A stretch of 64,000 bases of DNA from Promethearchaeota archaeon Loki_b31 (GTDB taxonomy: Archaea; Asgardarchaeota; Lokiarchaeia; Sigyniarchaeales; SOKP01): the NCBI GenBank assembly GCA_005222975.1, contig NJBI01000009.1, forward strand, positions 20,449 through 84,448, given 5' to 3'. Position numbers and translations under genes: made by a program. Of this stretch, positions 14,355 through 50,625 are shown piece after piece. The notes below the pieces were generated by a model. The model ran no database searches. It was not told where the DNA came from and was given only the letters and a program-made list of their open reading frames with translations. The first letter of the stretch is position 1; each line of letters starts with the position of its first letter.

Positions 14355-15640
14355 ATGGAGTTGATACAAAAAAACGTCAGATTTAGACCAAGTAAAAGGG
14401 ATCAACGCTCGACAGATAAAGCTCTTGCAAGAGAGCGGTATTAGCACGGCGGAAGCTTTAGCAATGTCCCCACATAACATCATATCGGAGATCGACGGGT
14501 TAGGCGATAAAACAGCCAAGAAACTGATTTGGAATGCGCGAAACGCGTTAGGTATGACTGAGTTCATAACTGCCGATGACATCGACGAGAACACCGAGTA
14601 CATTACCACTGGCTCTTCCGAATTAAACAGAATTTTAGGCGGCGGATTCCAAACCGGAAAACTTACCGAAGTGTACGGACCCTTTAAGTCCGGTAAAACC
14701 AATTTAGCTCATACGATCGCTGTAACCATCCAGCTTCCTAAAAAAAAAGGAGGTTTAGGTTCCACAGTAGCCTACATCGACACCGAAAATACTTTTGCTA
14801 AGGAAAAAATCAAAAGAATCGCCAAAAGGTTTGGACTGGATCCGAAGAAGGTTCTATCGCAAATTTATCACGCCAGGATTTATTCATCGGACCACCAATC
14901 GCAAATGATTCAAAAAGCTGAAACTTTATGCAAAACTCGAAATGTGCGTTTAATTGTAGTAGACAGTTTGATGGCGCTTTTGCGGGCCGAATATGTGGGT
15001 ATTGGCATGTTAGCTCGTCGACAAAGCTTTTTGAACAATATGATACACGCCCTTTCCCGGGTTGCAGAGACATACAATTGTGCTGTTCTTCTTACCAATC
15101 AAGTTTCGACTAAGATGATGGGAATGTTTTCAGGAAACGACGCAATTGGCGGAAATAGTGATAAGATATTTCATCAATCACTTCTAAATCGTAGCCCATG
15201 GCTGCCACTTTCGTGTGATGTTTAAAACTAAAGGTTTCTCTTCCAATAATTCGTTAAAGCGGAGAGCTATAATAGTGGATGCGCCAGACTTGCCACCTGA
15301 AGAAGCAGAGTTTTACATAACGAGTGTAGGAATTGCCGACACGGAAAAGGGAGAGGTTCCCGAAGCTCAAGGCTTAGATTTCGAAGTCGAGACATTGTAC
15401 GAAGAAGAGAGTAACGCCGAAGAGAGCGAAGTTTCCGATAATGGTAATGGTAACCATTCGCTCATTGATGTTAAAGGAATTGGAGCCGGCACCGCAAAGA
15501 ACTTAATAAAGGTCGGAGTAGGCTCTGTAAAAGAGTTGGTAAGTTCTGACCCCGAAAAAGTGGCTTCTAAAATTAACGGAGTCTCTTCTAAAATGGTCCT
15601 TGAATGGCAAACCAACGCAAAGACCTTGTTGAGCGTTTAA
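14355..15640 (+). CDS. radA: RadA/Rad51-family recombinase with C-terminal HhH domain; interrupted by a 31-nt putative intron (15157-15187) and a 1-nt frameshift in A7 (14368-14374)
   Basis: N-terminal HhH (DLDQVKGINARQIKLL), TTGSSELNRILGGG, GPFKSGKT, YIDTENTF, VVDS, LTNQV; removing 15157-15187 joins AIGGN to IVAHGCHFRVMF. Confidence 0.85.
15157..15187 (+). other. putative BHB-type mRNA intron in radA (31 nt)
   Basis: central helix GGAA/UUCU, bulges AUA and AAA, inner stem GUGAU/AUCAC; canonical cuts restore frame and motif. Confidence 0.8.
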
Positions 15641-48406: not shown

Positions 48407-49754
48407 ATGAAAAAAGTAGCTATTATTGGAGTTGGAATTACTCCTTTTAAAGCAAGATATATGGATAAAACGCATTTCGAATTAGCGTATGACGCGACCA
48501 AGCTCGCTTTGGAAGACGCAAATAAAAATGGGGCTGAAATAACTCATAAAGATTTAGAATCAACGGTTTATGGAATATATAATGAACTTTTTGAACGCCA
48601 ATTCATGCCCGACATCTTTATAAACTCGTACATCGGAATGAACAACAAACCAGGAACTCGAATCGCGTCTGGGGGCGCAACTGGGGGGTATACTGTACGG
48701 ATGGCTTACTCTGAAGTTGCTTCAGGGCTTTCGGATCTGTGCCTCTGCTTAGGCGTAGAAAAGTGTAATGACTGTTACGACGAAAAAACGGGCACGACAA
48801 CACCAGAGGTTCTAAATGCAATCGCTTATTCTGCCGATATGACTTACGAAAAAATGTTGTAATATTCTACACATCTCGTAAATATCCTATGGGCATGATG
48901 GCGGCCAGCTCTTATGTAAGCATGGTTAATGCGCACTTTGAAGAATTCGGAAATCCCACCGAGGATCAAATGGCTTAACACTATAATATTTAGTTAAGTG
49001 GGCTAATGTCTCGGTTAAGAATCATGGAAACGCTTTGTTGAATCCAATTGCACAATCACCTATGAAGCTATCTCTTGATGACATCCTCTTCTCAAGGATA
49101 ATATGCTATCCTTTCAAGATGCTTGATTGCTGCCTTTATTCCGAAGCTTCGGCAGCTTTAATATTAGCAAGCGAAGAAAAGGTAAAGGAATTAAAGATTG
49201 AGAATCCAATTTGGATAACTGGTGTAGGTGCTGCGAATACAGATTGTTTTATCGGTAATCGGGAAGAAATAGGGCGGTTATATTCAAATGTTTACGCAGC
49301 AAAGGCAGCTTACAAGATGGCGGGATTGGACTATAATAAGATCAAACAACAAATCGATTTGGCAGAGCTTCACGATGCCTTCTCTGGACATTACTTGTCA
49401 TAAAGACAATTTGCCAGTCAAGAAGTCATCTCCTATGAAGAACTCGGTTTTGTATCTTTTGGAGAAGGAGGTCCATGGATTGAAAAAACATTTGAAAAAC
49501 CTGGAGAAGGCCCTTGGTTAGAGGGAGAACTCCCGTGTTGTCCTTCAGGTGGCTTGATAGGTTGTGGCCATGCTGTTGGTGCGACGGGAATTATGAGCAC
49601 TGGAGAGGCTACCCTTCAATTAAGAGGGGAGGCAGGTAAACATCAAGTACCAATTGCTAAAGGGAGAGCTATATCTCATTCTATTGGAGGTCCTGGTGCC
49701 GCCTATGCTGCGGTAATCGTAATGACAAACGAGGAGGGGTTGAAAAAACCATGA
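48407..49754 (+). CDS. SCP2-type thiolase-family protein encoded in 4 exons (48407-48850, 48883-48977, 49007-49389, 49420-49754); 418 aa after splicing
   Basis: KKVAIIGVG, GVEK, VSVKNH..ALLNP, ELHDAF, EELGF, SGGL..GH.VGATG; removing three BHB inserts (91 nt) gives one 1257-nt ORF. Confidence 0.88.
48851..48882 (+). other. putative BHB mRNA intron 1 of thiolase (32 nt)
   Basis: central helix UACG/CGUA, bulges AAA and AAU, inner stem AUGU/ACAU. Confidence 0.8.
48978..49006 (+). other. putative BHB mRNA intron 2 of thiolase (29 nt)
   Basis: central helix GGCU/GGCU (2 GU pairs), bulges UAA and AAU, inner stem CACU/AGUG. Confidence 0.75.
49390..49419 (+). other. putative BHB mRNA intron 3 of thiolase (30 nt, in-frame stop)
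   Basis: central helix CUGG/CCAG, bulges ACA and UCA, exon stem CUUCU/AGAAG, inner stem UUGUC/GACAA. Confidence 0.88.
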
Positions 49755-50251
49755 GCGAAGAATTTCGATCACATGAAATCAGGGATAAAATTCTAATAGA
49801 ATATAAGTATACTATGGGCGGGCAATCAAAATTCTTCATAGAATTAATGAATAATAAAAAGATATTAGGAACAAAATGTAAGAAGTGTGGTAAAGTATGG
49901 ATGCCTCCAAGAATTAACTGCTCAGAATGCTACGAAGATACCGATTGGATTGAGCTCCCCCACGCAGGTACGATTCAAATTAGTACGATAGTGTGGTATG
50001 GGGCTGCTGAGTTTATTCAAAATGTTCCCTACGGTTGTGCCTTTATTAAATTAGATGAAGCAGATACAGCATTGTTTCAAGGTGTATTTTCAGAAAATTT
50101 AGTACCTTCAAAAATTAAGAAAGGACAACGAGTTAAAGCAGTGTTTAAAAGAAGGGAGGATCGAGAAGGAAGAATGACAGATTTCTTCTTTGTTCCCGAA
50201 GATGAGTGGGAAAGATGGATTAATAAACCAGAATTTGAAGGTGGTGAGTAA
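49751..50251 (+). CDS. DUF35 Zn-ribbon/OB-fold protein (thiolase partner)
   Basis: GTKCKKCG...PPR..CSEC, then OB fold; overlaps the thiolase stop (ATGA). Confidence 0.9.
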   Translation: MSEEFRSHEIRDKILIEYKYTMGGQSKFFIELMNNKKILGTKCKKCGKVWMPPRINCSECYEDTDWIELPHAGTIQISTIVWYGAAEFIQNVPYGCAFIKLDEADTALFQGVFSENLVPSKIKKGQRVKAVFKRREDREGRMTDFFFVPEDEWERWINKPEFEGGE

Positions 50252-50253
50252 AA

Positions 50254-50625
50254 TTGGGTATTGCAAGTGAAAGTTTAAGTAAAATTGTTGAAAATATGAG
50301 CGGGAACGCAAAAGTTGAAGCTGTTTTTGTAACTAATATTGGTGGTAAAGAAGTTGATTGGGATATGATTTTCCAATTTAACTTGGATAACGAGGACTCT
50401 TTTTATCTTAAAGTAAAGGGAAGAAAGGCTGAACTGATTAATGGAACCGCTTCAGATCCTAACATAATTATGACGGGAGATAATAACGCAATTGTAAAAA
50501 TCTGCAATGGTAAGGGGGATTTCACTCATGCGATTAGTAGAGAAGAAATAAAAGTTACAAAAGGAAAAATCATTGATGTAATACGCCTAACTCGAGCAAT
50601 AACCCTTGTTTTGAAAACTAAATAA
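50254..50625 (+). CDS. SCP2 sterol/lipid-binding domain protein
   Basis: FQFNLD...FYLKV...G....PNII...IKV.KG pattern; operonic with thiolase and DUF35. Confidence 0.75.
   Translation: MGIASESLSKIVENMSGNAKVEAVFVTNIGGKEVDWDMIFQFNLDNEDSFYLKVKGRKAELINGTASDPNIIMTGDNNAIVKICNGKGDFTHAISREEIKVTKGKIIDVIRLTRAITLVLKTK

What the first reader, a model, noticed from the sequence alone, without database searches (positions are those of the whole stretch)
48972..49010. Thiolase intron 2 (29 nt): splicing converts a stop codon into Tyr
The exon ends ...ATG GCT TA|, and the unspliced codon is TAA. Canonical BHB cuts (helix GGCU/GGCU, bulges UAA and AAU, inner stem CACU/AGUG) join TA to T, giving TAT and MAYVSVKNHGNALLNP, which matches the thiolase MAxVxVKNH.NA..NP consensus. 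A simple direct-repeat deletion would give Asn instead, so this junction residue distinguishes the two mechanisms.
Basis: partly seen in the sequence, partly recalled or inferred. Interest (0 to 1): 0.82.

Follow-up and report, generated by a model that had tools for sequence, protein, structure and literature searches.

The report
tRNA-type mini-intron in Asgard thiolase gene
A 29-base insert shaped like an archaeal tRNA intron breaks a conserved enzyme gene of a Loki-type Asgard archaeon. Cutting it where the tRNA-splicing enzyme would cut restores the tyrosine codon that uninterrupted relatives carry, so the messenger RNA is very probably spliced, which the papers I could search report for only one archaeal protein gene (cbf5).

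Summary

- **The insert.** Window 48978-49006 is a 29-nt insert in a thiolase-like gene (48407-49754, +). [quoted passage not shown]
- **The junction.** Cutting after the second nucleotide of each bulge joins TA to T, giving TAT (Tyr).
- **Orthologs without the insert.** Of 78 intron-less orthologs, 35 have Tyr and 34 have Leu at this codon. None has Asn, the product of a direct-repeat deletion or a ribosome hop.
- **Other carriers.** The same insert sits at the same site in 8 of 154 genomes of the order. The BHB rule gives Tyr in six and Leu in two, and the inner stem shows compensatory changes.
- **The gene is functional.** Removing all three inserts gives an intact 418-aa protein. Interrupted copies are under strong purifying selection (dN/dS 0.03-0.05).
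- **Splicing enzymes.** The genome encodes two EndA homologues and one RtcB.
- **Intron turnover.** Across orthologs the gene carries about 11 insert sites; I checked 10, eight with a perfect 4-bp central helix. Intron 2 is patchily distributed.

No transcript evidence could be found. Earlier follow-ups of this scan noted the same kind of intron elsewhere in this genome, including intron 3 of this gene.

The parts
48407..49754 (+). Thiolase-like gene (SCP-x/archaeal type) split into four exons; the spliced product is 418 aa
   Evidence: intact 418-aa product after removing three inserts; Thiolase_N and Thiolase_C_1; PDB 6esq; orthologs 83-96% identical in protein
48407..48850 (+). Exon 1
48851..48882 (+). 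Intron 1 (32 nt): central helix UACG/CGUA, bulges AAA and AAU; junction GAA|TAT
   Evidence: orthologs read TA[CT] GA[AG] TAT CC
48883..48977 (+). Exon 2, ending ATG GCT TA
48978..49006 (+). Intron 2 (29 nt), the finding
48972..48975 (+). Central helix H, exon strand (GGCU: last base of the Met codon plus the Ala codon GCU)
   Evidence: Paired in 8 of 8 carriers. The Ala codon is GCT in all 8 carriers against 26 of 78 intron-less orthologs
48976..48978 (+). Bulge A (UAA), cut UA|A; it also forms the in-frame stop codon of the unspliced message
48979..48982 (+). Inner stem h', 5' arm (CACU)
   Evidence: C-G/A-U and C-G/U-A exchanges between carriers
48997..49000 (+). Inner stem h', 3' arm (AGUG)
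49001..49004 (+). Central helix H', intron strand (GGCU)
49005..49007 (+). Bulge B (AAU), cut AA|U; the U becomes the third base of the Tyr codon
48958..48964 (+). Distal exon-exon helix, 5' arm (ACCGAGG)
   Evidence: It pairs with 49009-49015, and G130 has ACUGAGG/UCUCAGU, a change on both sides
49009..49015 (+). Distal exon-exon helix, 3' arm (UCUCGGU)
49007..49389 (+). Exon 3, starting T GTC TCG
49390..49419 (+). Intron 3 (30 nt): central helix CUGG/CCAG, bulges ACA and UCA, outer helix CUUCU/AGAAG; junction GGA C|AA
49420..49754 (+). Exon 4
49751..50251 (+). Downstream DUF35/ChsH2-type zinc-ribbon plus OB-fold gene; operon partner conserved in most of the 15 orthologous loci inspected
50254..50625 (+). 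Downstream SCP2-like gene; operon partner

Best explanation
[quoted passage not shown] In the transcript, exon bases GGCU pair with intron bases GGCU to form the 4-bp central helix. A 3-nt bulge lies on each strand (UAA and AAU), and the stem CACU/AGUG closes the intron. Inferred step: the tRNA-splicing endonuclease EndA cuts after the second base of each bulge. Inferred step: RtcB joins ...GCU UA to U GUC..., turning the stop codon UAA of the unspliced message into UAU (Tyr) and shifting exon 3 back into frame. The 29-nt intron is released, probably as a circle. Unspliced RNA can only give a truncated product. Two further introns of the same kind (32 and 30 nt) must be removed from the same message. 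The intron is one of a changing set: related genomes carry BHB inserts at about 11 sites in this gene, and intron 2 occurs patchily.
For: - **Junction.** The BHB cut gives TAT. Of 78 intron-less orthologs, 35 have Tyr and 34 Leu, and none has Asn or Ile.
- **Other carriers.** Eight of 154 genomes of the order carry the intron at this site. The BHB rule gives Tyr six times and Leu twice.
- **Structure.** The central helix is paired in all 8 carriers. The inner stem is 88% paired, with 4 pairs changed on both sides. Slid controls pair only 20-47%, and 0 of 500 shuffles reach the observed covariation score. RNAalifold on its own finds the central helix, the 3-nt 5' bulge and the inner stem.
- **Chance.** Frequency 6e-4 for this motif at the fixed junction.
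- **Generality.** Among the offsets compatible with the orthologs, exactly one has a 4/4 central helix for all three window introns and for most inserts in the orthologs.
- **The gene is alive.** The spliced ORF is 418 aa and 83-96% identical to orthologs. dN/dS is 0.030 between two carriers and 0.045-0.054 in other pairs.
- **Exon co-adaptation.** The Ala codon in the helix is GCT in all 8 carriers against 26 of 78 intron-less orthologs.
- **Machinery.** Two EndA homologues and one RtcB are encoded. ARAGORN found introns in 12 of 23 tRNA genes.
- **Cut rule.** The rule is confirmed for cbf5 in PMC2738675.
Against: - No RNA evidence. The spliced junction was not found in metagenome contigs, and no near-identical full-length protein exists in the 5.8-billion-protein collection.
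- The central helix has two G.U pairs.
- The outer helix next to the bulge is only 2 bp in the window.
- The BHB fold is 3.6 kcal/mol above the minimum-energy fold of the window sequence.
- The carriers are related, so the covariation and codon counts overstate independence.
Confidence: 0.85

Rival explanations
1. Translational bypass, as in phage T4 gene 60. The ribosome takes off at Ala codon GCU (48973-48975), which is followed by the stop UAA and a hairpin. It lands on the matching GCU (49002-49004) and resumes at AAU, giving Met-Ala-Asn-Val without any RNA cutting.
For: The window has matched GCU codons 29 nt apart, a stop codon right after the first, and a hairpin between them. The comparison with gene 60 is from my own knowledge.
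Against: The predicted residues are Asn in three carriers, Ile in three and Lys in one. Neither Asn nor Ile occurs in any of the 78 intron-less orthologs. In G130 the landing codon is GUU, not GCU, and in G003 and G082 no stop follows the take-off codon. Introns 1 and 3 of the same gene have no matched codon pair. This model does not explain the exact 4-bp and 3-nt BHB register.
Confidence: 0.03
2. Dead or dying gene. The three inserts are insertions that are never removed (for example tiny transposon remnants with GGCT as a target duplication and CACT/AGTG as terminal repeats), and intact paralogues do the work.
For: Seven other thiolase-like matches in the genome lie in long open frames without internal stops. 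GGCT flanks the insert as a direct repeat.
Against: dN/dS is 0.03-0.05 between interrupted copies, the same as between uninterrupted ones, although synonymous sites are near saturation. There is no other damage, and the ORF is intact after the three BHB excisions. The same insert has been kept in 8 genomes with compensatory changes. Introns 1 and 3 have complementary, not direct, flanks.
Confidence: 0.05
3. Removal at the DNA level. Recombination between the GGCT repeats deletes the insert in part of the population, giving GCT AAT GTC (Asn).
For: A 4-nt direct repeat is present. Intron-less alleles exist in related species.
Against: No ortholog has Asn. The repeat is imperfect in G130 (GGCT/GGTT). 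Introns 1 and 3 have no direct repeats. A 4-nt repeat is a very weak substrate for recombination (my inference).
Confidence: 0.02
4. The RNA is spliced at the same junction, but by enzymes other than EndA and RtcB, for example an unknown nuclease and ligase pair special to these archaea.
For: No enzyme assay has been done. The central helix has two wobble pairs and a weak outer helix, so the motif is relaxed.
Against: The motif meets the published BHB geometry and cut rule exactly, and the known enzymes are encoded.
Confidence: 0.05

Closest known systems
BHB intron in the cbf5 (pseudouridine synthase) pre-mRNA of Desulfurococcales and Sulfolobales (Watanabe 2002; Yoshinari 2006; Yokobori 2009, PMC2738675)
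   Same: A short intron inside a protein-coding sequence with a relaxed BHB motif. The cut is predicted between the second and third bulge residue. It occurs in an organism with more than one EndA-type protein, and its presence among relatives is patchy.
   Different: A different phylum (Asgard, not Crenarchaeota) and a different gene (a metabolic thiolase-like enzyme). There are three introns in one message here, and about 11 insert sites in the gene across relatives. The intron is 29 nt, and its first base completes a stop codon. Splicing of cbf5 was shown by cDNA; here it is inferred.
BHB introns of archaeal tRNA genes, including the heavily interrupted tRNA genes of Asgard archaea (bioRxiv 10.64898/2026.10.13.758758)
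   Same: The same motif and presumably the same enzymes. The same genome has intron-rich tRNA genes.
   Different: The host RNA is a messenger, so excision must be exact to the base and in frame. The exon half of the central helix is made of codons, which constrains synonymous choice (GCT in all 8 carriers). I found nothing on coding-sequence introns in that preprint.
Translational bypass elements (T4 gene 60; 'byp' elements of Magnusiomyces mitochondria)
   Same: A short insert with a stop codon after a take-off codon, a hairpin and a matching codion pair at its end in the window sequence (take-off and landing GCU).
   Different: The bypass product (Asn) is contradicted by the orthologs. Other carriers, and the other two inserts of this gene, lack matched codons.

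Membership tests
Archaeal BHB (EndA-dependent) intron | Two 3-nt bulges on opposite strands separated by a 4-bp helix | tested here: met
   GGCU/GGCU (2 G-C and 2 G.U pairs) with bulges UAA and AAU. The helix is paired in all 8 carriers.
Archaeal BHB (EndA-dependent) intron | Cutting between the second and third bulge residue gives the correct mature sequence | tested here: met
   It gives TAT (Tyr) in frame, and Tyr or Leu in all 8 carriers. These are the two dominant residues in 78 intron-less orthologs. The rule is taken from PMC2738675.
Archaeal BHB (EndA-dependent) intron | At least one flanking helix (h or h') next to the bulges | tested here: met
   The inner stem h' is 4 bp in the window and up to 9 bp in relatives, with 4 covarying pairs. 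The adjacent outer helix h is only 2-3 bp. A distal 7-bp exon-exon helix exists in one intron lineage.
Archaeal BHB (EndA-dependent) intron | EndA and an RtcB-type ligase are encoded by the host | tested here: met
   Two PF01974 proteins of about 200 aa (best PDB matches 3p1z_B and 1a79_A) and one PF01139 protein.
Archaeal BHB (EndA-dependent) intron | Spliced RNA and excised (circular) intron observed | not testable with these tools
   No transcript data are available. The junction search in metagenome contigs gave 0 hits, and no near-identical full-length protein is on record.
Translational bypass element (gene 60 type) | Matched take-off and landing codons, and a product consistent with homologues | tested here: not met
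   The codons match in the window (GCU/GCU) but not in G130 (GCU/GUU). The predicted Asn and Ile are absent from 78 orthologs.
Group I or group II self-splicing intron | A ribozyme core of hundreds of nucleotides | tested here: not met
   The insert is 29 nt, and Rfam finds no family in the window.

The most novel reading that the evidence does not exclude
Intron 2 belongs to a population of mobile BHB mini-introns that spread sideways between Loki-type Asgard genomes into protein-coding genes. They may spread by a homing-like gene conversion that carries flanking exon sequence along. If so, tRNA-splicing enzymes service an expanding set of mRNA introns in the closest prokaryotic relatives of eukaryotes. 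What points that way:
- The 8 carriers fall in at least 6 separate places of the gene tree, and their nearest relatives are mostly non-carriers.
- The intron is 27 of 29 bases identical between two carriers whose synonymous sites differ at 70%.
- About 70 nt of flanking exon are 90-93% identical among three carriers, against 81-83% (sd 4.5%) for pairs of equal divergence.
- The flank includes a Ser codon-class switch (TCG against AGC) relative to the sister genes.
Probability: 0.35. Interest if true: 0.9.

Novelty: new variant of a known kind. Interest (0 to 1): 0.8.

Why it matters
In the papers I could search, EndA-type splicing inside an archaeal coding sequence is documented for one gene only, cbf5 of some Crenarchaeota. 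Here an ordinary metabolic gene of an Asgard archaeon needs three such excisions, and its orthologs show about 11 insertion sites with gain and loss between species.

If RNA data confirm it, three consequences follow:
- Gene callers truncate or split many Asgard genes. The protein collection holds 311-314-aa fragments of this gene's orthologs, the length expected if the call stops at intron 3.
- mRNA splicing by the tRNA machinery would be routine in the lineage nearest to eukaryotes.
- How splicing is ordered relative to translation in a cell without a nucleus becomes directly testable. For intron 2 the unspliced message stops exactly at the exon border.

Tried and rejected
- **Spliced junction in metagenome contigs** (35-nt pattern covering the window and G004 variants): 0 hits. 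This gives no cDNA-like or intron-less allele of this lineage.
- **My error.** The patterns were written one base out of register and could not match the intron. The 9 hits are unrelated and the 0 hits mean nothing. The second metagenome scan was thereby wasted. The corrected pattern found the 8 carriers.
- **Search of the 5.8-billion-protein collection** for a near-identical full-length product: the best hits are 93% identical and 311-314 aa long, the length expected for a call that stops at intron 3. None is at least 95% identical and full length.
- **blastn-short of the three introns against the own genome:** only the introns themselves and short A+T-rich chance matches of at most 17 nt. 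So they are not a multi-copy repeat at the sequence level.
- **Search for a selfish neighbour gene special to carriers**, a lead from earlier notes: the upstream neighbours vary in carriers and non-carriers alike, and none stands out. I did not annotate them further.
- **Window-wide scan** for BHB motifs that merge two open frames: dominated by noise at gene borders. It re-found only intron 3 and the 31-nt insert at 15157-15187.
- **Stop-codon read-through or another genetic code:** rejected, because 29 nt shifts the frame and further stops follow.
- **Rfam and ARAGORN on the window:** nothing found.

Full report
**Observation.**
- Exon 2 ends ATG GCT TA at 48977, and the next base makes TAA.
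- GGCT occurs at 48972-48975 and again at 49001-49004.
- CACT (48979-48982) is complementary to AGTG (48997-49000).
- The trinucleotides TAA (48976-48978) and AAT (49005-49007) lie between these elements.
- The layout is: exon helix strand, bulge, intron stem and loop, intron helix strand, bulge, exon. This is the real BHB topology. Cutting after the second bulge base removes 48978-49006 (29 nt) and joins TA to T.
- The upstream frame (…NPTEDQMA) and the downstream frame (VSVKNHGNALLNP…) differ by the shift that a 29-nt removal corrects.

**The gene.**
- It runs from 48407 to 49754 on the + strand and has two more interruptions of the same kind: 48851-48882 (32 nt) and 49390-49419 (30 nt).
- Removing all three gives an uninterrupted 418-aa protein.
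- It is thiolase-like: Thiolase_N and Thiolase_C_1 in Pfam, and PDB 6esq (archaeal acetoacetyl-CoA thiolase) as the best solved relative.
- A DUF35/ChsH2-type gene and an SCP2-like gene follow it. This arrangement is conserved in most of the 15 orthologous loci I inspected.
- Record titles of orthologous contigs name Promethearchaeota, that is Loki-type Asgard archaea.
- The genome is 3.52 Mb in 99 contigs, and the window has 33% G+C.

I collected 84 distinct orthologs (69-88% DNA identity) from genomes of the same order and aligned them.
- Seventy-eight have no insert at this site.
- Their codon here is TAT in 25 and TAC in 10 (Tyr, 35 in all). A Leu codon occurs in 34. The rest are Cys 3, His 2, Phe 2, Lys 1 and Met 1.
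- Asn, the product of a deletion between the GGCT repeats, never occurs.
- The closest relatives of the window gene read TAT, TAC, TAT and TTA.

**Other carriers.** A pattern search of 154 genomes of the order found the same insert at the same site in eight: G000, G004, G139, G130, G003, G082, G072 and G069. They belong to three GTDB genera of one family.
- In the six carriers run through the junction test (G139 and G082 were found later and read by eye from the alignment), the junction offsets allowed by the intron-less orthologs include exactly one with a 4/4 central helix, and that offset is the BHB register.
- The rule gives TAT in six carriers and TTA in two. Tyr and Leu are the two dominant residues of the intron-less genes.
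- The alternative junction would give Asn three times, Ile three times and Lys once, and it fails in G130, where the repeat is GGCT/GGTT.

**Structure.** On the eight-sequence alignment:
- The central helix is paired in every sequence.
- The inner stem is 88% paired, and four of its pairs change on both sides (for example C-G to A-U at its first pair).
- Overall 87.9% of cells pair, against 20-47% when partners are slid by 1-3 columns.
- None of 500 shuffles reaches the observed covariation score.
- RNAalifold, given no structure, returns the same central helix, the 3-nt 5' bulge and the inner stem. It closes the 3' bulge partly with an extra U-A pair.
- In one intron lineage a 7-bp exon-exon helix (ACCGAGG with UCUCGGU) clamps the motif, and G130 has ACUGAGG with UCUCAGU, a compensated change made through synonymous codon positions.
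- The Ala codon that forms part of the central helix is GCT in all 8 carriers but in only 26 of 78 intron-less genes. The hypergeometric probability is about 3e-4, overstated because the carriers are kin.
- Shuffling the insert gives this motif at this junction with frequency 6e-4.

**Weak points of the structure.**
- Two of the four central pairs are G.U.
- The outer helix next to the bulges is 2-3 bp.
- In the window sequence the BHB fold scores -12.7 kcal/mol against -16.3 for the minimum-energy fold, which uses another register. In G004, G130 and G003 the minimum-energy fold is close to the BHB.

**The gene is functional.** Nei-Gojobori estimates on 381 codons away from insert sites give dN/dS 0.030 for the window against G004, both with several introns. 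Other pairs give 0.045-0.054, whether or not they are interrupted. Synonymous sites between the window and G004 differ at 70%. A pseudogene is therefore very unlikely.

**Machinery.**
- The genome encodes two EndA-family proteins of about 200 aa. One is closest to chain 3p1z_B and related crenarchaeal-type chains, the other to 1a79_A.
- It also encodes one RtcB.
- Which organisms those PDB entries come from is from my memory, not from the tool.
- ARAGORN finds only 23 tRNA genes, 12 of them with introns. That fits the report that Asgard tRNA genes are heavily interrupted (bioRxiv 10.64898/2026.10.13.758758).

**Mechanism.**
- Shown: the motif, its conservation and covariation, the junction matching orthologs, purifying selection, and the presence of the enzymes.
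- Inferred: EndA cuts UA|A and AA|U, RtcB joins the exons, and the intron is released.
- The stop codon at the exon-intron border is a by-product of an exon ending in UA plus the A-rich bulge. Most bulges at the other sites read AA|A.
- Its effect is that ribosomes on unspliced RNA stop exactly at the border. Whether this is used for control is unknown.

**Rivals.**
- A gene-60-like ribosome hop deserves mention, because the window has matched GCU codons, a stop after the first and a hairpin. It predicts residues the orthologs never show, it fails in G130, G003 and G082, and it cannot serve introns 1 and 3.
- DNA-level repeat deletion predicts the same wrong residue.
- Read-through cannot repair a 29-nt frame shift.
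- A transposon footprint (GGCT duplication with inverted ends) does not fit introns 1 and 3, whose flanks are complementary rather than repeated.

**Dynamics.**
- Across the orthologs this 1.25-kb gene carries short inserts (28-35 nt where measured) at about 11 sites, some only 3-5 nt apart. I checked ten of them. Eight have a 4/4 central helix at an ortholog-compatible offset. One shared by three genomes has 3/4. One insert in G004 and another in two other genomes could not be resolved by my script.
- Intron 2 is scattered over the gene tree, and each carrier's nearest relatives are mostly non-carriers.
- The intron is 27 of 29 bases identical between the window and G004 despite 70% synonymous difference.
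- The flanking exon tract among the window, G004 and G139 is 90-93% identical. Gene pairs of the same overall divergence average 81-83% with sd 4.5%, which puts these three pairs in the top 1.5-2.7%.
- Compared with its sister gene, the window switches the Ser codon class (TCG against AGC) in that tract.
- This fits either lateral spread with co-conversion or many precise losses plus helix constraint. I chose the tract after seeing the data, so this is suggestive only.
- I found no selfish gene consistently next to carriers.

**Literature.** In the full-text library I found EndA-type splicing within archaeal coding sequences only for cbf5 (PMC2738675). I found nothing on Asgard protein-gene BHB introns. 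Subscription journals are largely absent from that library.

**Earlier notes of this scan.** They describe the same kind of intron in other genes of this genome and follow up intron 3 of this gene. My results agree, and I re-derived introns 1 and 3 independently. What this report adds for intron 2:
- the junction-residue test;
- the eight-genome carrier set with covariation;
- the hop rival and its rejection;
- the flank-tract signal.

**No RNA evidence** could be obtained. Two of my pattern searches were mis-specified and carry no information.

Noticed in passing
window 48640-48700 (exon 1): The thiolase-like protein reads ...TRIASGGATGG... where the PDB thiolase 6esq has ...TRVEAACASGS.... 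The nucleophilic Cys therefore aligns with Gly, so this conserved protein may not be a classical thiolase. I inspected only one pairwise alignment.
   Followed up: partly
orthologous loci L028, L029, L032, L038, L042, L045, L062, L074, L076, L084, L090, L100: The same gene carries other inserts of 28-35 nt at further sites (after GATGAA, GAACAA, ACGTAT, TGGGAA, GAGCAA, TTTTAG). Most have a 4/4 central helix and A-rich bulges (AA|A). Some sites are only 3-5 nt apart.
   Followed up: partly
window 15157-15187 (+): My crude scan re-found a 31-nt BHB-shaped insert that joins two open frames of 264 and 150 codons.
   Followed up: no
G000 whole genome: ARAGORN finds only 23 tRNA genes in a 92%-complete 3.5-Mb genome, 12 of them with introns. 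Many tRNA genes are probably too interrupted for the program to recognise.
   Followed up: no
window 49390-49419 and loci L010, L046, L072: Intron 3 is 30 of 30 bases identical in four species. For the one pair I measured (window and L046), synonymous sites differ at about 43%. The intron therefore changes more slowly than silent codon positions.
   Followed up: partly
proteins P0001 and P0002: Public gene calls for close orthologs are 311-314 aa long, the length expected if the call stops at intron 3. If so, databases hold fragments of this protein.
   Followed up: no
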